This document shows positions 2,842 to 52,442 of a stretch of 61,731 bases of DNA, piece after piece. This DNA is from Folioceros fuciformis. Lineage: Eukaryota. Position 1 is the stretch's first letter; each line of letters starts with the position of its first letter. Under the pieces are notes generated by a model that was not told the origin of the DNA, did not search any database, and saw nothing but the letters and a program-made list of their open reading frames with translations. The translations under genes were made by a program, and so were the position numbers. The DNA is taken from contig JBNGIO010006236.1 in the NCBI GenBank assembly GCA_049999805.1, positions 1-61,731 of the forward strand, read 5' to 3'.

Positions 2842-2941
2842 NNNNNNNNNNNNNNNNNNNNNNNNNNNNNNNNNNNNNNNNNNNNNNNNNNNNNNNNNNN
2901 NNNNNNNNNNNNNNNNNNNNNNNNNNNNNNNNNNNNNNNNN
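2842..2941. other. assembly gap (100 N)
   Basis: run of N. Confidence 1.
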
Positions 2942-14221: not shown

Positions 14222-16026
14222 TTGCAAAATGGCATTGCTCCTGACTGGTTCATCAACAACTGTTGGGTGTACATGTATGCAAAACGTAGCAAACGGAAGG
14301 AAGCGCAGCAGGTTTTCGAAAGCGCGGCCACAAAGGACGTGTTGATCTGGAAGGCCCTGACTTCTGGGTATGGTGAACTGAAAGATCCACGCCAGATTTT
14401 TGACAGCATGGGCGCCAAGGATGTGTTGACATGGAATGCCCTGATATCAAGGTATTCAAAACGTTGTGAACTGCAAGAGGCACGTTTTTGACAGCATGGC
14501 CAGAAAGAATGTGGCCACATGGGATGCCCTAGTTCCGAGATTAGCACAGCAAGGACTGGGACATGAGGCACTTGTCCTGTATGGACTGATGGAGCGGGAT
14601 GGGCTGATTTTGGCGACCCTCGTTACTTTCTCTACCCTTTTGAAGGCCTGTAGAACCACAGGTGCCATACGGAGGACAGGCACCTGCACTCACAGATTAG
14701 TCAGAAGAGAACTGATCGATAACGTAGTGTTTGGTACCTGCTTGGTTGACATGTATGCAAGATGTGGTGCACTGGAAGATGTGCATCAGGTGTTTGGCAA
14801 CATGAAAAGAAAGGATGTCGTGACATTGATCACCCTGATATCCGGCTGTGCACAGCAGGAACTCGACCAAGAGCCGCTTGTATGGACAAATGGAGGAGGC
14901 CAGCCTGATTTTGGCAGACGATTTTACTCTTTCTTGCCTTCTGAGGGCCTGTGGAAGCATTTGTGTGTCAGAGAAGGGCAGGCAGCTGCATTCACAGATT
15001 GTCGAACAAGGACTGCTGGATAACGCAGTGTTGGGCTTCTGCCTGTTGGCCGCACAACCAGAAGTGGTGACCTGGAAGATGCACGCCAGTTTTCTGACAC
15101 CATGATGAGAAAGAATGTAGTGACATGGATGCCCTGGCAGCTGGGTATGGTAATTGTGATGATGGTGTAAGGGCACTAGCTTATTTTGTCGACATGTTAG
15201 TCGCTGGTATTCCTCCTATCGTTGCTTCTTCTACCTGCCTTATAGCGGCATGCACTCTCGAGGGACTAGTCCCCACGAGGGTCGCAAGTACTTTGATTCC
15301 ATGGGTGAACAGCATGGCATCAAGCCTACTAGGGAGCATTACCCCGCATCGTTGATCTTCTTGGGCGTGCAGGCCATTCTGTTGAGGCGGAGAAGGAGCT
15401 CTGGCCATGTGAAGGGCGAAAGTGATATTGCGGTATTATCGTCTTTGTTGAATGCTTGCAAAAATCACGGGGACAGTGGGAGGGCGACTTGGTGTTTTAC
15501 AAGCATTGTGAGGCTGGACCCTCAGAATGATCCTTCGCACGTGCTCATGGCCAATGCCTACGCAGCTGCAGGCAGGTGGACGGATGCGCACAGGACTGAA
15601 TCAGACGGAGGGCAGCTGGAGCTGAAAAAAGACCTGCCGTGGCTAGCTACCGTTAAGGTGGAGACGCAGGTGCATACATTTGCGTTAGGTGAAACGTAAG
15701 ATGATCGTGCGTTGCAAGAGAGAGCACGAATGCGCCGCTGAAGCAGTAAGGTTGGCCGGCCACTACCTTACACAAAATTGCTGTTGAAGCTAGTGTCTGA
15801 GAAGGAAAAGGAAGATGCGCTCTGTGGCATGCTGAGAACCTAGATCTGGCGTTCGGCCTCTTGAACACTCCTAGTGGGACGCCTCTGGTGGTAACCAAGA
15901 ATCTACGCACGTGCAGTGAGTGCGAAAATTCTACGGAGATCATGTGAAGGAGACATGGCTGCAAGGGTTGGGTACCGTTTGCATCGATTCACAGCTGGCT
16001 CTTGCATTTGTGAGGTCCGACCTTGA
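14222..16026 (+). pseudogene. PLS-class PPR pseudogene with E domains and DYW:KP-type deaminase domain
   Basis: PPR motifs (DVLTWNALISRY, LVDMYARCGALEDVHQVF, EGRKYFDSMGEQHGIKPTREHY) spread over several frames; KRPAVA-TVKVETQVHTF box, HAENLDLAFGLLNTP, KNLRTCSEC, C-terminal HRFTAGSCICEVRP*; many frameshifts and stops. Confidence 0.9.
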
Positions 16027-16497
16027 GAACACGGAAGAGGTAGCCATGCTGTTCGTGTGTTCAGACAACACTAGGATAGGCTAAGTACGTCTTTCGAAAC
16101 CAGACATATCGAGAAAATGAGAAACTAGACAGGGTTTCCCACATGTGCATTTCGTCTTAGGGTTACCGATGAATATAAGACTAGGGGTTGTTGAAACCCG
16201 CGCACAAGCTTCGGAGATCATTACCTGAGACAATCTAAAATTCCACTGTGAAAAACATATGTTCACGTAGGAATAACGATAACGATGATCTAAAACAGGT
16301 CTGAATTGATCGGACGAGTTTATGTATTTCATAAGGAATGTAGGCCTTTTGTTGATCCTATGCCGGATTCGCTGGCTCCGGCAACTACCTACTCCAGTCC
16401 CCGCTGTCTTCGCCTTTCGTTTGCCATCGGCCTCGCCGAACGTCAGACTTTACCCAATTGTGCTTCCATTGCCGACAGGCCGGTATCTTGCGATTAA

Positions 16498-19400
16498 ATG
16501 GATGCTATGTCCGCCCCTGCTCTCTCGCTCCTGCCAAATTCAGGAGCGCCACCTCCACGAATAGCAGCAGTGCAAGCTCAGAGCTTCGGTGCTGCCTGGA
16601 ATGTGGCCAGCTCCCCGTCTTCTTTACTGGTAAGTCTTGTACGCTGACCTCGTCCTGCTCGTTGGTTGGTGGTTTGGTGCGTTGCATCCTATTCACACAG
16701 ATTTTGGTGCTTCCTGAAGGCGACTGGATTGTAGGTTGTTTTGACCTTTCAGAATTCGCGGAGTACTGGAACGAGTTCGATTCTCTGGCAATGTTGCATG
16801 TGCAGGGACTTTTGGCAGATGTCCCCACTTTCGGGAACTATGCAGCCCAGTCCTCGTTCCGCCCTGGCCACAAACTCCCGTTAGGTCTTCAGGGGAGGAG
16901 GAGAGCACACAATTGGGGACCAAGATTCTCCGGCAACACTGGTACGTACTTCGACTGCCCTTAGAAATGACAGCTGATTGCCGTCTCGTATACGGGTACA
17001 TCAGGTCTCTGAAAGCAAACCCTGATCTTTCCGCCACAGAGTCCATTGCTTTCTCTGAAGAAGCAGTTTCCAGCACAAATGCTGATTTATCCACCACAGA
17101 CTCTCTTGGTTTTACTGAGGAATCTGTGACCGAAGTTGAATCAAGTCCAAATGGGGCTGCAAAGGACGCATTTCTTGAAGATGATAGTCGGAGAGAATCT
17201 GATCCGAGGAGTGAAGAAGCGGGGCCTACAGTGGAGGAAGCAAAGGTAGCTGCTGGAATGTACTCTAATATCAAAACAGTACCGTTGAAAAAGGGCAAGG
17301 GATACGTAGTTGCAGATCTTCTCATGGTCTATGGTGGGGTTCTAGATCGGCCTTTTGGGAGTGGCCAGATGATAGCTGCGGCAGGTGATGCAGTGATTGA
17401 GCGGGTCCTCGAGGAATTTGAGAATCCAGACGTTCAAACTGGAGTAGATGAGCAGTTGCTATCTGATTTCCGTACATCTATAGGCTCGTTGCGCAAGGGT
17501 CTTGAAGTAGTGAGTGCAGCTCAAGAGCGATCCACGTTGCTTGAAAGCCTTGAGGTGGTGAAGCTGCATTGCAGGCAGGCCATTCTTGCGGCAAACAAGT
17601 TCTAGAGGTTTCGTTATCATGATAGCTTCAGGCCGTGGTGGAAACAAACAAACACTCTCTTTATCGTTAAGATCATAGGTGTCAGCCATTCCTTTCAGAA
17701 TGGAATGGCCTCTTCCAACCCTAGTATATCCCGTGAATCCGTATGGATGCCAATGTATTGGATGCTGCTTGGTAACTGTATCTCCTTGATTCAAAGTGTG
17801 ATTCCCATAGATTCCTCCAGCATGTTGCATCATTTCTTGCAAACCAATGCCATGTGTGTTCAGAAGGACCTCCTGATCTCAGGAGGATACTGTTGTTGTT
17901 TTAGCTGCAAAGTGTCCTTGGATTTTAATTTGCCAAATGTGATGACGCTGCAGCAATCTGATGCTATGGAAGTAGGTGATACAGTCGGATCAAGACAACC
18001 TGACAATGGCGATGAGGATATACTTATAGAATGCCGAAATGTGTACAAATCATTTGGGGAGAAGCAAATTCTTAGGGGAGCAAGTTTTAAGGTGGGTCTG
18101 TGCTTCCACAGGCAAACTTGTATCATGGATTCAGCCTACTTGCCAAGCCAGATAGCACTTATTAGCAGTTCACTTTACCCAGTCCTTGCGTTTTTCCTCC
18201 CACTATGTCCGCACCTGTTCACATATTTGCAGATTGCTGTTGTGTTACTTTTCAAAGATTCGAAATGGGGAGGCAGTTGGCATCATTGGCCCTTCAGGAA
18301 CAGGCAAAAGCACAGTACTTCGAATAATGGCTGGGCTCCTTGCACCAGATAAGGTGAGCTGCGTCCAACGATTCAAGGAGCTCATATAGGTTTGAAAGCT
18401 GAGATATAGAGTAGTCGAGCTTCTCAAATTAACTGGTGCATGCTCCACTTTGCCGCGAGTTACCTTTGGCAATGCGAACTCGGAAATCCGCTAATGCTTT
18501 CCTGAATGTGTCTAGGGTGAGGTGTACATTTGTGGCAAATTACGACATGGCCTTATCAGTGATGAAGAGCTTTCAGGTCTTCGAATTGGCCTGGTCCGTC
18601 ATCTCTACCCATGTCTAGATTGTCTGCAGGCGATGCTGAGAAGCTGCGGTCATTTTGTCAATTCACAAATTACTTCAAAACGAATCGCAGGTTTTCCAAA
18701 GTGCTGCACTTTTCGACTCCTTGACTGTTCGAGAAAATGTTGGTTTCATGCTGTGAGTTCTGCTGCCCTATGTTTGGATTTTGACCTCCAATGTAGGTGC
18801 AACTTTATGGAAATGATTATGCTTGTACAGGTATGAACACTCCAATCTTTCAGATGAAAGGATAGCGGAGCTGGTTACTGAAAGTCTAGCAGCTGTGGGA
18901 TTGAAGGTTGGTCTCCATATTTTGTTTCTGTAGTTTGGGAATAACTTATCAGCACTGACGTTGTGGTGTAACCCATTCTGGAGAACTGCGTGGGCTGTAA
19001 CTCAATGTCTGCAGCTGATCTTTGTCGTACCTGCAGAATGTAGAAGACCGCTATCCCGCAGAGCTCTCAGGCGGTATGAAGAAACGGGTGGCCCTGGCTC
19101 GAGCAATCATCTCTGACAACCAAGAGACCGAGAACCATGAGCCTGAGGTAACAATGTTTATGGAGCCTGGAGATCCCTGACATCATTTCTTACAAACTAA
19201 GACACAGCTTCGTTCTTACAGCCTGAAGGGTATTCACCGAAGTGACACAAACGGTTGCAGGTTGTGATGTATGATGAACCTACAGCTGGGCTTGACCCAA
19301 TTGCATCGACTGTTGTGGAGGATCTGATACGATCGATGCATACTAAGGGCAACGATGCAAGGGGCAAACCTGGGAAAATAGCCTCTTATGTGGTTGTTAC

Positions 19401-19736
19401 TCATCAACACAGTACAATCAGGCGAGCAGTGGACAGGTAGCATGCATCCGTAAGTCCGCAGCTCTTTGAAACGTTGTAGTAGATAGTTGTCCTTCTCAAC
19501 CCCTCTTATTTCCTCACCGGAATTTGTTGGAACAGGCTTCTCTTTCTTCATGAAGGCCGTGTGGTTTGGGAGGGCCAAACCTCCGAGTTTGATCACACAA
19601 CCAATCCAACTGTCAGACAGGTATTTGCTGTTTTCTTAAGTACATTAGTTTTCGTGTTGCAACGTCTCTCTCAGGTTGTCGTTTCTATCGGATGCAGTTT
19701 GCAGATGGAAGTCTCGACGGTCCTATACGGTACTAA
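16498..19736 (+). CDS. TGD3: TRIGALACTOSYLDIACYLGLYCEROL 3, plastid ABC ATPase (ABCI13-like). Core exons 17954-19736; N-terminal exons 16498-16629, 16806-16941 and 17679-17740 are inferred
   Basis: ILIECRNVYKSFGEKQILRGASFK|IRNGEAVGIIGPSGTGKST..|VFQSAALFDSLTVRENVGF|..ELSGGMKKRVALARAI..|YDEPTAGLDPIASTVVEDLIRS..VVVTHQHSTIRRAVDR|..FADGSLDGPIRY*. The core is highly confident; the 5' exons are joined by phase-compatible GT-AG sites. Confidence 0.9.
17005..17605 (+). CDS. nested or alternative terminal coding exon, tentatively OSA15/AAF (senescence-associated plastid protein)-like C-terminal domain
   Basis: ~200-codon open frame with an acidic linker, then DRPFGSGQMIAAAG...VSAAQERSTLLESLEVVKLHCRQAILAANKF*. 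The HCRQAIL end recalls OSA15/AAF proteins (from memory). It lacks its own transit peptide. Confidence 0.6.
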
Positions 19737-20273
19737 GTAGTTGTAAACTGTTTGGCTTTGCAATCCTTGTGCTACATTTATTAACAAGTTAACATGATAT
19801 AGTAGTCGTCGATAATAATAATTAGCACATTCATGGAATCCGGGGGGTTTTAAACACTGTTGTACGATTTTAGGCATCACCATTAATATGTTAGTTGAGG
19901 CACCAAGTGAAACACAACTGTGGTACTTTATCTACAATCGGCTCGCGAGGGCTTGGATGATGTTTTCTAGAGCGGCACGAGATGATATGACCATGTACCA
20001 ACGGCAGGGAGAAACCTAAAACAGAATTGCAACAGCTACGAATCTAGAGGAAATACTCCCTAAACCGACAGGCTGCGTACAACGGGGGCACTCGTTCGAC
20101 ACTCTACAGGGGCCACAACGAGAGCTTGAGAATTCAACACGTGCATCGAATTCGAGTTGTACTCCCGATCATTCAAGGAGGTATGCTCAGCCTGCAAAAA
20201 AAAAAATGGCTCCCTATCTGCAGTGTACCAGGTGGCAGGACATGCAATGTTCCCACAGATTTCACGAACATCC

Positions 20274-21725
20274 CTAGTCGCAAACCTTGGAAATGACTCC
20301 GGCACCAACTGTCTTCCCTCCTTCTCTGATAGCAAACCTCATCTTCTGCTCGATGGCAACAGGCATGATAAGCTGGACAGTCATCTTCACTCTGTCCCCA
20401 GGCATTATCATTTTGGTCTCCTCGCCCTTGTCATTCTGAACTTCAGTGACGGAACCAGTGACATCGGTTGTCCTCATATAGAACTGGGGCTTGTAGCCAC
20501 AGAAGAATGGTGAGTGCCTGCCGCCCTCCTCCTTTTTCAAGATGTACACGGAGGCCTCGAACTTGCTGTGAGGCAAAATGGTTCCAGGCTTGGCCAGCAC
20601 CATACCCCTTTGAATATCGTCCTTTTGAATACCCCTCAGAAGCATACCACAGTTGTCACCGGCCAATGCTTCCTCCAAGATCTTCTGGAACATCTCCAAT
20701 CCGGTGACAGTCGTACTCCTCGTGGGCTTGAGACCAACGATCTCCACAACCTCTCCCACCTTGATAGTTCCCCTTTCCACCCTGCCAGTGGCCACAGTGC
20801 CTCTTCCAGTGATGGAAAACACATCCTCAATAGCCATGAGGAAAGGCAGGTCTGTCTGCCTCTGAGGCACGGGGATGTATTCGTCCACCTTCTCCATGAG
20901 CTCGTAGATCTTATCCACCCACTTGTCCTCGCCCTTGGCAATAGTCTTCCCGGCGGTGATGGCATTAGTGAGCGCCTCCAAGGCGAGCAGCGCGGAGCCA
21001 CTCACTATCGGCACCTCATCGCCGGGAAATTCGTACGAGGTGAGAAGCTCTCGCATCTCCATGTCCACCAGCTCCAACAATTCCTCATCATCCACTTGGT
21101 CCTGCTTGTTCAAAAACACCACCATGTTAGGCACCCCGACCTGCTTAGCCAGCAGAATGTGCTCCTTTGTCTGTGGCATGGGCCCGTCGGCCCCAGACAC
21201 CACCAAAATGGCTCCGTCCATTTGAGCCGCTCCAGTGATCATGTTCTTGACGTAATCAGCGTGGCCTGGGCAGTCAACGTGCGCGTAGTGCCTGCTCTCC
21301 GTCTCATACTCGACGGTAGCAGTGTTGATAGTGATGCCGCGAGCCCGCTCCTCCGGTGCGGCATCAATCTCGTCGTACTTCTTCGGGGCCCCCAGGGCCA
21401 TGGTGAGGGCGGCGGTGAGCGTGGTCTTGCCGTGGTCGACATGGCCGATGGTACCTCTGTTTACGTGGGGCTTGGTCCGCTCGAACTTTCCCCTGGCGGC
21501 CCGCGGCACCACCAGGTGGTAGCTGCGGCCGCCGACCACTCTCCTTCCGGCAACGCGCAATCCCTCCGTGTGCGAGAAGGTGGATGCGGAGCTGAGGGCG
21601 GCGACATTCTTGAGCGGGGCGAGCCCTAAGCTGGCCGCCTGCTTCTGCGACGACGGCGTGGCGGCGCTGCCGGACACCGAGGGCATGCACAGGGCCGCTC
21701 TGTTCAAGGACGCGCAGCACGCCAT
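20274..21725 (-). CDS. tufA: plastid elongation factor Tu, nuclear-encoded, intronless, with transit peptide
   Basis: [75 protein letters not shown]. Confidence 0.98.
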
Positions 21726-21973
21726 CTCTGCGGAGCTCCCGAGCGTTGCCGAATGCTCACTGCGACAGGGCCGAGCAGGGCTGTGCTGTGCGCTGCGCTA
21801 GGCAAGGCAGACGAGAATACGCAGACGGGAGCACGCGAACAATGGCCTGCGCGGCGGGAGCTAGAGAGGAAGGGTAGTGGACGGTCCACCCGTTGCGCTC
21901 CGCTGATGGCCGTCCGATCAGCTCGTCGGAGGAATGACAGCCGCGGATGAGGCTATTTGGGAGGTTTTAGGGC

Positions 21974-47539: not shown

Positions 47540-48030
47540 CTGCAAAGAACATTGGCCAACATAGCTTTTAGAGTGGATTTTAGAACATCGAATCCATTGC
47601 TTTGCAAAGAGCATTGGCCAATGCGGTTTTCAAAACATCGTATCCATTTGCAAAGAACATTGGGAAATGTGGTTTTTTGGCCAATGCGTTTTCAAAACAT
47701 CGTATCCGTTTGCAAAGAACATTGGGAAATGTGGTTTTTAGAACAACAACAAGCTCAAGTCAAGCGGCTTCTTCTTCGATACCTAATAACATTGTATCCG
47801 TTTGCAAAGAACATTAGGAAATGTGGTTTTTAGAATAACAACAAGCTCAAGTCAAGCGGCTTCTTCTTCGATACCTAATAACATCGTATCCGTTTGCAAA
47901 GAACATTNNNNNNNNNNTTCTTCTTCGATACCTAATAACATCGTATCCGTTTGCAAAGAACATTGGGAAATGTGGCTTTTAGAACAACAACAAGCTCAAA
48001 TCAAGTGGCTTCTTCGATACCTAATAGGCC
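47540..48030. repeat. minisatellite-like tandem array (92-bp main unit, shorter 5' variants) containing a 10-N gap at 47908-47917
   Basis: tttgcaaagaacatt recurs at 47709, 47801 and 47893 (period 92), with shorter-spaced copies upstream. Confidence 0.9.
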
Positions 48031-50783: not shown

Positions 50784-52442
50784 TCACGGAGACGACAGCT
50801 CAATTACTTCGTTGTGTCTGGTATTTTTCTTCAGCACAGACTTGCTCACGCGATGGCATAGCGTCCATGCATATGTTGATGGAACTTCTTCCCTCATACT
50901 AGTCAGCACAGGCAACTCTTCAGGGCCCTGGAATTCCACGTCCACGAAACCCTCAAATCGCTGAAGGAAGATTTGAAGCTCCTTCTTGGTCTCCATTGTC
51001 ATCAAAGACACTAGACTTCCACCAGTATGTATTCCAAAGATGCGTTGTTGCGACTGTTGCATAAACTCTTGTACTAACTCTTCTTTGACTACAGCCGCAG
51101 TTATTAGGCTCCCATCGTCTACATGTACAACCAACTTGCATCCTTGTTCAGTAAGTCTAAACTCCTTTACTCCCACCAGGACGCACTTAACTCTACCACC
51201 AACTGGTCTCTTCTCCAACAGCATCCTGTTCCTGAGTGTAGCCAAATAACTGAATGGGGCTTCCTCGGATTCGGTCTCTGACGCCGCCCGACTGGCGCTG
51301 GTGCTATTCCCTGTGCGAATTTCCCTCGCCTCCTCAGCCACTTCCATCGGCGCGAGCATCTCAGAGATAGGGGGGGGGAAGGCCAAGGACACTTGCCCTC
51401 TTCCCTCAGTGCTGGAGGTCCCTTCACTCCTACCGAATTCCCTCCGAAGGGCGAGCCTACTACCTCCCCGTGGGCGAAGAGCACCTCTACAGGCTTCCGG
51501 CGAATTCCTGCTTTCAAGAGTTTCCACAACGTTCCCCGTTCTGTTCGAGAGGGACACGGGCTCAGTCCCCGTCATTCTGACCACAGCCACAGCTTCTTCC
51601 CGCGGCACAGCATCGCTGACGCTGCCCCTTCCCGTCTCAGACAAATGCCCCGTAGGAGCGGACCGCGGGCCACGTGCGGCATCGCCACTCTCCTCCCCCT
51701 CCTTCACTGGCCAAGCCGCGGACGCTGCGAGCTCAACAACATTTGCACGGTTCCCCCGAGGCGGCTTGTTCACCTCCTGAACCACGCGCTGCCGTGCCGC
51801 TTCCAAGCGTTCCACAAATCCCCCTACAACATCAACCACTTCTGGAACCAACAGCAGGAGCCCGCGCCTAATCTGCACATGCCGCACCACAATCTTCACT
51901 CCAGCCGGCAGCAGCACCTGCAACGCCGCGATGTACCTGTACTCGACCCCGAAAACACGCTGCACGCCGTCAGTCATAGACAGCTTCAGACACCGCCCCC
52001 CCTGCTTCTCCTTGTACCGTTCCCTGAGAGGCGGCCCCACGTCCACNNNNNNNNNNNNNNNNNNNNNNNNNNNNNNNNNNNNNNNNNNNNNNNNNNNNNN
52101 NNNNNNNNNNNNNNNNNNNNNNNNNNNNNNNNNNNNNNNNNNNNNNAGGCACCCGGCCCCCGCCACACTGAAATCCGCCATCAACGCCTGCCCAAAGCAC
52201 AGCTCCGCCTTCCTCTCCACCGGCAGCGACCTGAAACCAGGCCGGGCCAAAGCCAAGCCGGTCAGACATGATTCGAGCCACTCCGGTCTCATCCTCACGC
52301 CTCGGCATCTCAACAGTTCCTGTACACCAACCCACGGCCCTGACGTCGAAACGGACGGCTGCGGAGGTGGCCTATCACATTCGTCGTCGTCCGAGAGCTC
52401 CACGGCATCTCCTCCCATTCGCACGTCGCCATAGCCAGCCAT
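50784..52442 (-). CDS. RMI1: RecQ-mediated genome instability protein 1, apparently intronless; spans an N gap
   Basis: LRCRGVRMRPEWLESC, CFGQALMADF, RCLKLSMTDGVQRVFGVEYR, PAGVKIVV..RRGLLLLVPE..GGFVERLEAARQR, PFSYLA, VDDGSL. Confidence 0.92.
   Translation of the reverse strand: MAGYGDVRMGGDAVELSDDDECDRPPPQPSVSTSGPWVGVQELLRCRGVRMRPEWLESCLTGLALARPGFRSLPVERKAELCFGQALMADFSVAGAGCXXXXXXXXXXXXXXXXXXXXXXXXXXXXXXXXXXVDVGPPLRERYKEKQGGRCLKLSMTDGVQRVFGVEYRYIAALQVLLPAGVKIVVRHVQIRRGLLLLVPEVVDVVGGFVERLEAARQRVVQEVNKPPRGNRANVVELAASAAWPVKEGEESGDAARGPRSAPTGHLSETGRGSVSDAVPREEAVAVVRMTGTEPVSLSNRTGNVVETLESRNSPEACRGALRPRGGSRLALRREFGRSEGTSSTEGRGQVSLAFPPPISEMLAPMEVAEEAREIRTGNSTSASRAASETESEEAPFSYLATLRNRMLLEKRPVGGRVKCVLVGVKEFRLTEQGCKLVVHVDDGSLITAAVVKEELVQEFMQQSQQRIFGIHTGGSLVSLMTMETKKELQIFLQRFEGFVDVEFQGPEELPVLTSMREEVPSTYAWTLCHRVSKSVLKKNTRHNEVIELSSP
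52047..52146. other. assembly gap (100 N) inside RMI1
   Basis: run of N. Confidence 1.

What the first reader, a model, noticed from the sequence alone, without database searches (positions are those of the whole stretch)
16498..19736. One transit peptide, two unrelated plastid proteins: an OSA15/AAF-like exon nested in a TGD3 intron
Seen: exon 16498-16629 (MDAMSAPALSLLPNSGAPPPRIAAVQAQSFGAAWNVASSPSSLL, phase 0) and exon 16806-16941 (GLLADVPTFG..GRRRAHNWGPRFSGNT, phase-1 donor GTACGT) read as a plastid transit peptide. They splice in frame to 17679-17740 and then 17954, which continues into TGD3. TGD3 has no other evident transit peptide or promoter room: only 73 bp separate 17605 from 17679. 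Inside that intron lies an unrelated ~200-codon exon (17005-17605) with its own stop and no transit peptide. It could be reached in frame via the AAG acceptor at 17015, via the weaker donor 4 nt downstream, or via a frame-switching 34-nt exon at ~16701-16734. Established precedent: rps14 shares the sdh2 presequence by alternative splicing in grasses. Inference: alternative terminal-exon choice switches output between a lipid-import ATPase and a senescence-associated-like protein.
Basis: partly seen in the sequence, partly recalled or inferred. Interest (0 to 1): 0.8.

Follow-up and report, generated by a model that had tools for sequence, protein, structure and literature searches.

The report
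Two plastid proteins share one presequence
One plant nuclear gene makes two unrelated chloroplast proteins, a CRR41-type NDH assembly factor and a TGD3-like lipid-import ATPase, which share the same first 158 codons depending on whether one splice site is used.

Summary
The core idea holds, but the splice map and one protein name are wrong. Spliced RNA contigs from four runs confirm exons 16498-16629 and 16806-16941. Exon 2 then joins 17040, not 17005, 17016 or 17679. In 3 of 4 runs a donor inside the "nested" ORF (17245|17246) joins 17954, the first ABC-ATPase exon.

Three exons (158 codons) are therefore shared: a transit-peptide-like stretch plus an acidic linker. Splicing at 17245 gives a 444-aa TGD3-like ATPase. 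Reading on to TAG 17603-17605 gives a 277-aa protein.

Its last 119 residues are not OSA15/AAF. They belong to the CRR41 family of chloroplast NDH assembly factors. In 40 of 42 related clusters this is a stand-alone protein of 125-301 aa. This stretch is coding: 11 of 15 listed differences between organisms are synonymous and it has no indels. The 17606-17953 stretch carries 1-2-nt indels.

The conserved motif GPTVEEAK ends the shared exon, so TGD3 probably borrowed CRR41's 5' exons. This is a new member of the known kind of shared targeting peptides (sdh2/rps14, trx-m3/rps7). The TGD3 subfamily call and import into the plastid remain inferred.

The parts
16362..16497 (+). 5' UTR. The RNA contigs start at 16362 (X1) or 16387 (X2, X17). 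An in-frame TAA lies directly before the ATG.
   Evidence: table 8; sequence
16498..16629 (+). Shared exon 1 (44 codons), the start of the transit-peptide-like region.
   Evidence: Joint 16629|16806 in 4 of 4 runs. Exons 1+2 together give 89 aa with 2 D/E, 7 K/R, 13 S/T and 14 A.
16806..16941 (+). Shared exon 2 (136 nt, ends in phase 1).
   Evidence: Joints 16629|16806 and 16941|17040 in 4 of 4 runs.
17040..17245 (+). Shared exon 3 (206 nt). It encodes an acidic, predicted-disordered linker that ends in GPTVEEAK. It is an internal exon in the TGD3-like mRNA and the 5' part of the terminal exon in the CRR41 mRNA.
   Evidence: joints; 68 aa with 18 D/E; pLDDT below 55 over residues 1-80 of the model; GPTVEEAK-type motif in stand-alone homologues
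17246..17605 (+). CRR41-specific coding extension (119 codons plus TAG 17603-17605). It is a folded four-helix domain and is removed as intron sequence in the TGD3-like mRNA.
   Evidence: Contigs read through the donor in 4 of 4 runs. 11 of 15 listed differences are synonymous and there are no indels. 42 relatives at E<=1e-3. 39% identity to a named CRR41, E 6e-24. pLDDT 80-96.
17606..17795 (+). Likely 3' UTR of the short CRR41 mRNA. The X1 and X2 contigs both stop at 17795, which is only a weak hint of a poly(A) site.
   Evidence: table 8 (records 3 and 9); 1-nt and 2-nt indels at 17631 and 17655 in other organisms (table 4)
17246..17953 (+). Intron of the TGD3-like mRNA (GT..AG, 708 nt).
   Evidence: Joint 17245|17954 in X1, X2 and X17, with 28+2 letters on the short side; not seen in X3 (table 5).
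17679..17740 (+). It is not supported.
   Evidence: No joint at either end in 4 of 4 runs.
17954..18091 (+). First ATPase-specific exon (phase 0).
   Evidence: joints
18258..18353 (+). ATPase exon carrying Walker A (GPSGTGKS).
   Evidence: (ABC ATPase families, best E 4.5e-09)
18516..18593 (+). ATPase exon.
18691..18752 (+). ATPase exon.
18831..18906 (+). ATPase exon.
19037..19147 (+). ATPase exon carrying the ABC signature LSGG.
19261..19436 (+). ATPase exon carrying Walker B. Its best solved-structure matches are MlaF chains, but weakly.
   Evidence: (E 0.013-0.018)
19536..19620 (+). ATPase exon.
19698..19736 (+). Last ATPase exon, with stop TAA at 19734-19736.

Best explanation
This is one transcription unit, starting at about 16362, with two protein products. 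Exons 1-3 (16498-16629, 16806-16941, 17040-17245) encode 158 shared residues: a transit-peptide-like N-terminus and an acidic disordered linker.

If the donor AAG|GTAGCT at 17245|17246 is not used, translation runs on to TAG 17603-17605. The product is a 277-aa CRR41 homologue, a chloroplast NDH subcomplex-A assembly factor by family name. Its mRNA probably ends near 17795 in some organisms and carries the ATPase exons as a long 3' UTR in others.

If the donor is used, 17246-17953 is removed. The same 158 residues are then fused in frame to nine exons of a MlaF-type, TGD3-like ABC ATPase, giving 444 aa.

SHOWN: the splice joints, both RNA forms, both reading frames, purifying selection on the CRR41 part, and CRR41 family membership.

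INFERRED: plastid import through the shared N-terminus; competition between splicing and intronic polyadenylation as the switch; TGD3 orthology; and the history. In that history the shared exons were CRR41's own and TGD3, lying downstream on the same strand, captured them.
For: JOINTS: One search shows joints 16629|16806 and 16941|17040 in 4 of 4 runs. Joint 17245|17954 occurs in 3 of 4 runs (X1, X2, X17), which come from three studies and three coded organisms. Contigs reading through 17245 occur in 4 of 4 runs: to 17795 in X1 and X2, to 17981 in X17, and through to 18088 and on into spliced ATPase exons in X3. In X1 and X2 no other intron is covered, and 17796-17951 is bridged only by the joint. 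The read-through is therefore not generic pre-mRNA.

FRAMES: Both products are open and in frame, at 277 aa and 444 aa with no internal stops.

CODING SIGNAL: Of the 15 listed differences between organisms in 17246-17605, 11 are synonymous. The figure is also 11 of 15 in exons 1-3. All three listed indels between 17040 and 17953 lie at 17631, 17655 and 17853, and each is 1-2 nt long.

FAMILY: The 119-aa part has 42 relatives at E<=1e-3, and 40 of them are 125-301 aa with the domain at the C-terminus. The functional names seen are all CRR41, in 3 of the 20 clusters looked up. BLASTP against a named CRR41 gives 39% identity and E 6e-24, aligned to the last residue.

ORIGIN OF THE SHARED EXONS: The motif GPTVEEAK at the end of shared exon 3 recurs in stand-alone homologues P0002, P0007, P0015 and P0005.

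STRUCTURE: In the model the shared linker is disordered. The folded four-helix domain starts only after the donor.
Against: The 17245|17954 joint has only 28+2 letters on its short side. That is just under the 31 the tool asks for before a record counts as bridging.

In X3 the joint is absent, and the only contig through the region retains 17246-17953. Contigs can merge overlapping transcripts of two genes, so a separate start site for the ATPase inside 17606-17953 is not excluded in organisms C and D.

The ATPase frame is open through all of 17606-17953, with 0 stops in 116 codons. Only 20 of 20000 shuffles give this. An in-frame ATG at 17705 lies in that stretch and could mark a transit peptide of the ATPase's own.

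No protein-level or import evidence exists. No whole genome was available, so a second TGD3 or CRR41 copy cannot be excluded.

Table 3 shows only 40 of 133 difference rows, so the synonymous counts rest on a subset. TGD3 orthology could not be tested with the full-length protein.
Confidence: 0.75

Rival explanations
1. These are two ordinary neighbouring genes. CRR41 is 16498 to about 17795. The TGD3-like gene has its own promoter in 17606-17700 and its own first exon from ATG 17705 through 18091, encoding its own Ser-rich transit peptide. The 17245|17954 joint would then be a read-through chimera without function.
For: The ATPase frame is open over all 116 codons of 17606-17953, which only 20 of 20000 shuffles reproduce. 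An in-frame ATG lies at 17705. X17 and X3 contigs cover 17606-17953 continuously, as overlapping transcripts would.
Against: In X1 (identical to the window) and X2 no contig covers 17796-17951, and exon 4 is reached only through the joint from 17245. A 2-nt deletion at 17853 in X3 and X17 breaks that frame. Divergence there is several-fold higher than in 17246-17605: X17 record 6 has 57 differences in 766 nt, and only 12 listed ones fall in the 360-nt CRR41 part. The joint recurs in three organisms.
Confidence: 0.1
2. Only one product matters. One version has the read-through form as an unproductive intron-retention or NMD isoform of a TGD3 gene. The other has the fused ATPase isoform as noise, with the working TGD3 encoded elsewhere in the genome.
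For: Intron retention is the commonest alternative splicing class in plants (general knowledge). In X3 the read-through RNA carries many downstream exon junctions, a typical NMD feature. The genome could not be searched for paralogues.
Against: The stretch 17246-17605 encodes a complete, conserved CRR41 domain. It shows 11 of 15 synonymous differences and no indels. The ATPase exons are also conserved without gaps across four organisms, for example 4-8 differences per 97-174 nt in X17. The in-frame joint is present in three organisms.
Confidence: 0.08
3. TGD3 is reached by 16941|17679 and 17740|17954, and the whole ORF 17005-17605 is an alternative terminal exon inside that intron.
For: The route is in frame and has consensus-like GT/AG sites.
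Against: Neither joint is seen in any of the 4 runs. An in-frame alternative (16941|17040 plus 17245|17954) is seen instead. Contigs drop rare variants, so a minor form cannot be excluded.
Confidence: 0.03

Closest known systems
sdh2/rps14 in grasses (rice, maize, wheat)
   Same: One nuclear transcript yields two unrelated organellar proteins by alternative splicing, and both use the same N-terminal targeting peptide. I read the abstract passage of PMC1543663. I saw the titles of Figueroa 1999 and Kubo 1999 only in its reference list.
   Different: That case concerns mitochondria, not plastids. There the incoming gene is a recent organelle-to-nucleus transfer inserted in an intron. Here both partners are old nuclear genes, since stand-alone CRR41 homologues reach back to Klebsormidium and Chara. 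The shared part here ends at a donor inside the first gene's terminal coding exon.
trx-m3/rps7 chimeric gene of Passiflora
   Same: A plastid transit peptide of one gene is shared with a second, unrelated plastid protein through alternative splicing (PMC7488351, passages read).
   Different: There rps7 is a recently transferred plastid gene sitting in the trx-m3 intron. Here the borrower is the ATPase lying downstream, and 69 residues of linker are shared in addition to the presequence.
CRR41 (CHLORORESPIRATORY REDUCTION 41) of Arabidopsis and other streptophytes
   Same: The 119-aa C-terminal domain aligns end to end. Total length (277 aa) and layout (N-terminal targeting region, variable linker, C-terminal helical domain) match the family.
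   Different: In 40 of 42 related clusters the protein is a stand-alone product of 125-301 aa, and no ATPase-fused form was found. Here its 5' exons also serve a second protein. CRR41's role in NDH subcomplex A assembly is known to me only from the title of Peng et al. 2012 in reference lists and from a review table. The paper itself was not held.
TGD3/ABCI13, the ATPase of the TGD1-2-3 chloroplast lipid importer (MlaF-type)
   Same: It is a small soluble ABC ATPase with Walker A, signature and Walker B exons. Its best solved-structure matches for the Walker B exon are MlaF chains. TGD3 is described as the NBD of the inner-envelope lipid importer in PMC6828968 (passage read).
   Different: It has no 5' exon or transit peptide of its own in use. 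The mature protein would carry a long acidic N-terminal extension derived from CRR41. Orthology to TGD3, as opposed to another ABCI ATPase, was not tested with the full-length protein.

Membership tests
CRR41 family | Significant sequence similarity over the whole conserved C-terminal domain to proteins named CRR41. | tested here: met
   One search gives 42 hits at E<=1e-3 and 19 at E<=1e-10. One search shows P0017, P0022 and P0023 named CRR41. One search gives 39% identity and E 6e-24 over 114 residues, aligned to the last residue. Invariant and near-invariant columns are shared in alignment A1.
CRR41 family | Small protein (about 200-300 aa) with an N-terminal plastid-targeting region and the domain at the C-terminus. 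| tested here: met
   The read-through product is 277 aa, and relatives are 125-301 aa with the domain C-terminal. The transit-peptide character of the N-terminus is judged from composition only.
CRR41 family | Function in the assembly of chloroplast NDH subcomplex A. | not testable with these tools
   Known only from names and the title of Peng et al. 2012. That paper was not held.
   Pfam finds no family. None of the 20 related clusters looked up carries an AAF, OSA15 or senescence name. No AAF/OSA15 sequence was available for a direct comparison.
ABC transporter ATPase (NBD) | Walker A, ABC signature and Walker B motifs in order. | tested here: met
   Exon translations hit many ABC ATPase families in NCBIfam (144, 71 and 15 families for three exons) and ABC chains in PDB. 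The motifs are visible in the translations.
TGD3/ABCI13 (MlaF-type) subfamily | Closer to TGD3/MlaF than to other ABC ATPases over the full length. | tested here: inconclusive
   Only single exons could be submitted. The Walker B exon's three best PDB matches are MlaF chains of Mla complexes, but at E 0.013-0.018. The signature exon ranks MlaF behind many other ABCs. The first ATPase exon matches nothing meaningful.
TGD3/ABCI13 (MlaF-type) subfamily | Plastid targeting by an N-terminal transit peptide. | not testable with these tools
   The only N-terminus joined to the ATPase exons in RNA is the shared one. Import itself is inferred.
Shared-presequence genes (sdh2/rps14 kind) | Two mature mRNA forms from one 5' end, each in frame with a different, unrelated protein-coding 3' part. 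| tested here: met
   One search shows three contigs meeting at 17216-17245 in X1, X2 and X17. Frames are checked. The two 3' parts belong to unrelated families. The short side of the joint is 28+2 letters.
Shared-presequence genes (sdh2/rps14 kind) | Both proteins are made and imported using the common targeting peptide. | not testable with these tools
   There is no proteomic or localisation data.

The most novel reading that the evidence does not exclude
This is a transit-peptide replacement caught midway. TGD3 once had its own first exon, from ATG 17705 running contiguously into 17954. It still survives in this genome as a 116-codon open frame, though it is already broken by a 2-nt indel in two related organisms. 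TGD3 now depends entirely on a Val-codon GT donor inside CRR41's last exon. As a result the cell sets the ratio of an NDH assembly factor to a lipid-import ATPase by one choice between splicing and polyadenylation. This couples thylakoid lipid supply to the build-up of cyclic electron flow machinery.
Probability: 0.2. Interest if true: 0.75.

Novelty: new member of a known kind. Interest (0 to 1): 0.55.

Why it matters
Every precedent I could read involves a gene freshly transferred from an organelle. Here two long-established nuclear genes for unrelated chloroplast functions have merged their 5' ends: NDH assembly and ER-to-plastid lipid import.

This shows that targeting peptides can be acquired or swapped by exon capture between neighbours, long after endosymbiotic transfer.

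It also gives a natural system in which a single splice site sets the ratio of two plastid proteins.

There is a practical consequence too. Automatic annotation of such a locus will give a truncated TGD3 without a transit peptide, a missing CRR41, or a false fusion. That would distort presence/absence surveys of NDH assembly factors and TGD components in bryophytes.

Tried and rejected
RUN SEARCH: no RNA holder is listed on record. All 21 rows are marked 'RNA? (a guess)'. I treated X1, X2, X3 and X17 as RNA-derived only because their contigs lack the introns.

NO COVER: X1 and X2 have no cover over 16670-16803, and there are other uncovered parts. I use these only where a contig joins across them.

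DEPTH: X1 shows depths of 132.5 (shared), 81 (read-through) and 307.6 (ATPase contig, which runs on beyond position 20000). I did not use these to rank isoforms, as the tool warns against it.

FAMILY LIBRARIES: Pfam on the nested ORF, exon 1 and exon 2 finds nothing. It also finds nothing for the named CRR41 P0017, so the blank is uninformative. NCBIfam on the CRR41 part finds nothing.

ESM ATLAS: Searching with the CRR41 part gives a best score of 0.80 to unrelated bacterial clusters, which I rejected. Searching with the Walker B exon gives only generic ABC clusters.

SEARCHES FOR LONGER OR FUSED RELATIVES: (119-aa part, longer proteins) finds none. (68-aa shared exon 3, longer proteins) finds only P0001, of 192 aa. 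No annotated CRR41-N/ATPase fusion was found, but this is weak evidence because hornwort-type proteomes seem to be missing from the collection.

FOLD SEARCH: there are 0 matches at E<=0.001, only generic four-helix bundles (cytochrome c', FAT domain, Psb27 at rank 32). I draw no functional inference.

SOLVED-STRUCTURE SEARCHES with single ATPase exons could not settle the TGD3 subfamily.

GENOME AND EARLIER FINDINGS: No whole genome is held, so no paralogue or synteny search was possible. Earlier findings of the scan hold nothing.

LITERATURE: 'TGD3' plus 'hornwort' gives 0 papers. 'CRR41' gives 15 papers, none about a fusion judging by the listing. Hornwort plus alternative splicing terms gives 54 papers, of which 10 were listed and none is relevant by title. 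Peng et al. 2012 is not held. Supplementary files were not consulted.

STOP-CODON READ-THROUGH of TAG 17603-17605 into the open frame was considered. I rejected it because of the frame-breaking indels in relatives.
Full report
WHAT WAS CHECKED FIRST. So are two of the proposed routes into the 17005-17605 frame. Sequence alone therefore could not decide between them.

RNA EVIDENCE. The run search listed 21 runs. None is on record as RNA, and the tool marks them 'RNA? (a guess)'. I laid four of them, from four studies and four coded organisms, on 16000-20000. X1 is identical to the window. X2, X3 and X17 differ by several percent. Their contigs lack the introns and have GT..AG ends, so they derive from spliced RNA.

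Joints seen (positions after applying the tool's stated 'cut' offsets):
- 16629|16806, in 4 of 4 runs.
- 16941|17040, in 4 of 4 runs.
- 17245|17954, in X1, X2 and X17 but not X3.
- All eight downstream introns: 18091|18258, 18353|18516, 18593|18691, 18752|18831, 18906|19037, 19147|19261, 19436|19536 and 19620|19698. These match my exon table exactly.

No run shows 16941|17679, 17740|17954, or any joint into 17005 or 17016. No run shows a 34-nt exon near 16701-16734.

In X1, X2 and X17 the shared 5' contig stops exactly at 17245. Two other contigs begin with the same 28-30 letters (17216-17245). One continues into 17246 and beyond, and the other continues at 17954. That is the signature of a branch in the assembly graph at a splice donor.

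One caveat applies. The short side of this joint is 28 letters plus 2 ambiguous ones, just under the 31 the tool recommends for calling a bridge.

THE TWO RNA FORMS. Contigs read through the donor in all four runs: to 17795 in X1 and X2, to 17981 in X17, and through the whole interval into spliced ATPase exons in X3.

In X1 and X2 no other intron has cover. The stretch 17796-17951 is bridged only by the joint. The read-through is therefore not general pre-mRNA. The common stop at 17795 in two studies is a weak hint of a 3' end there.

In X3 the only contig retains 17246-17953 while all other introns are removed. In that organism the CRR41-coding RNA may carry the ATPase exons as a 3' UTR, or two overlapping transcripts may have been merged. 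The tool warns that a contig across two genes shows no single transcript.

READING FRAMES. Exons 1-3 (132 + 136 + 206 nt) give 158 codons.
- With the donor used, they join nine ATPase exons in frame: 1335 nt, 444 aa, no internal stop.
- With the donor unused, the frame runs to TAG 17603-17605: 834 nt, 277 aa.

IS 17246-17605 CODING? One search lists 15 differences between organisms in this stretch. Eleven are synonymous and the four replacements are conservative (I/T, L/I, V/I, T/K). In exons 1-3 the count is also 11 of 15. Table 3 shows only 40 of 133 rows and omits positions near contig ends, so these are subsets.

All three listed indels between 17040 and 17953 lie after the stop, at 17631 (1 nt), 17655 (2 nt) and 17853 (2 nt).

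X17's read-through contig has 57 differences in 766 nt. Only 12 listed ones fall in the 360-nt CRR41 part. The 17606-17953 stretch therefore diverges several-fold faster. This estimate is approximate, for the same reason of truncation.

WHAT THE SECOND PROTEIN IS. Pfam gives nothing. An exhaustive HMMER search with the 119-aa part found 42 representatives at E<=1e-3, 19 at E<=1e-10 and 2 at E<=1e-30. Forty of the 42 are 125-301 aa long with the match at their C-terminus. The other two (1111 and 2117 aa) match in several short stretches and are probably spurious.

I looked up 20 of the 42 clusters. Three carry the name CHLORORESPIRATORY REDUCTION 41, chloroplastic: Nymphaea, the Quercus/Castanea group, and Ricinus via UniRef. 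The rest are hypothetical or unnamed proteins of Marchantia paleacea, Calypogeia, Diphasiastrum, Adiantum, Ginkgo, Zingiber, Chara, Closterium, Netrium and Klebsormidium. Spirogloea is added. None is called AAF, OSA15 or senescence-associated.

BLASTP against the named Nymphaea CRR41 gives 39% identity and E 6e-24, aligned to the last residue. Against the Marchantia homologue it gives 46% identity and E 1e-24. The named CRR41 also has no Pfam family.

CRR41 is listed as an NDH assembly factor in a review table (PMC4075315, passage). It also appears in the title of Peng et al. 2012, which I saw only in reference lists. The paper itself was not held.

STRUCTURE. A model built on alignment A1 (mean pLDDT 72.7) shows residues 1-80 with block means of 42-54. 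This covers the whole shared exon 3 part. Residues 88-185 form four long helices with block means of 80-96. The donor therefore sits in a disordered linker, upstream of the folded domain. The ATPase form inherits only the presequence and linker.

The fold search found only generic helical bundles, with 0 matches at E<=0.001.

WHOSE EXONS ARE THE SHARED ONES? The last eight shared residues, GPTVEEAK, recur at the same alignment position in stand-alone homologues: P0002 GPTVEEAK, P0007 GPSVEEAK, P0015 GPTAEEAN, P0005 GPTLEEAE. This points to CRR41 as the original owner.

The residue after the motif is Val (GTA, which supplies the donor GT) in the window and in the closest relative P0001. It is not Val in the stand-alone homologues. 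This fits a lineage-specific donor, but with only two sequences carrying the Val.

THE ATPase. Single exons hit ABC ATPase families (144, 71 and 15 families) and ABC chains in PDB. The Walker B exon's three best PDB matches are the ATPase chains of Mla complexes (6ic4, 7d06, 6z5u), and a chain labelled P. aeruginosa MlaF is also listed, but only at E 0.013-0.23. Naming those three entries as Mla complexes rests on my recall; the tool calls them only 'ABC transporter ATP-binding protein'.

TGD3/ABCI13 is the NBD of the inner-envelope TGD lipid importer (PMC6828968, passage).

AN UNEXPLAINED DETAIL. The ATPase frame has no stop in all 116 codons of 17606-17953, against 7 and 8 stops in the other two frames. 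Only 20 of 20000 shuffles give this. An in-frame ATG lies at 17705.

This could be a relic of a former first exon of TGD3. Three things argue against its present use: the missing cover in X1 and X2, the 2-nt deletion at 17853 in X3 and X17, and the high divergence.

MECHANISM. I take the locus to be a composite-terminal-exon switch. Exon 3 is either spliced at 17245, giving the ATPase, or extended to the CRR41 stop with an end near 17795 or later. Both products start with the same transit-peptide-like 89 residues, which contain 2 acidic and 7 basic residues and are rich in Ser, Thr, Ala and Pro. Import, the poly(A) site and any regulation are inferred.

COMPARISON AND NOVELTY. Sharing a targeting peptide by alternative splicing is known for sdh2/rps14 in grasses (PMC1543663, abstract passage). 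It is also known for trx-m3/rps7 in Passiflora (PMC7488351, passages). In both, the second gene is a recent organelle-to-nucleus transfer.

Here both genes are old nuclear genes. I found nothing in print linking CRR41 and TGD3 (listings only). I rate it a new member of a known kind, of moderate interest.

The flanking genes fit a land-plant nuclear genome: a PPR protein with E and DYW motifs, and a plastid-type EF-Tu with an N-terminal extension.

Noticed in passing
window 17606-17953: The ATPase reading frame stays open through the whole intron after TAG 17603-17605: 0 stops in 116 codons, against 7 and 8 in the other frames, and only 20 of 20000 shuffles give this. An in-frame ATG lies at 17705. 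It may be a relic of a former first exon of the ATPase gene. The frame is broken by a 2-nt deletion at 17853 in two related organisms.
   Followed up: partly
window 15163-15947 (+): The upstream gene ends in PPR E-motif and DYW-deaminase segments that lie in two different frames (Pfam E 2e-06 and 2.6e-10). This means either an intron or a frameshift between them. An X1 contig covers 16000-16169, probably its 3' end.
   Followed up: partly
window 20277-21797 (-): This is a convergent, intron-less plastid-type EF-Tu (tufA-like) gene of about 507 codons in the open frame, with an N-terminal extension of about 100 residues before the GTPase domain. The X1 ATPase contig (3003 nt) runs on past 20000, so the 3' ends of the two convergent genes probably overlap or abut.
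   Followed up: no
window 16581-16587: The three other organisms carry small insertions here, totalling 12 letters in each. They lie inside exon 1 (the transit-peptide region), so the presequence varies in length in frame between relatives.
   Followed up: no
window 2842-2941, 47908-47917, 52047-52146: These are runs of N (100, 10 and 100 bases): assembly gaps or withheld stretches elsewhere in the window.
   Followed up: no
window 19729-19736: In X3 and X17 the contigs diverge from the window just before the ATPase stop codon (loose ends at 19729). The extreme C-terminus and the 3' UTR therefore differ in those organisms.
   Followed up: no
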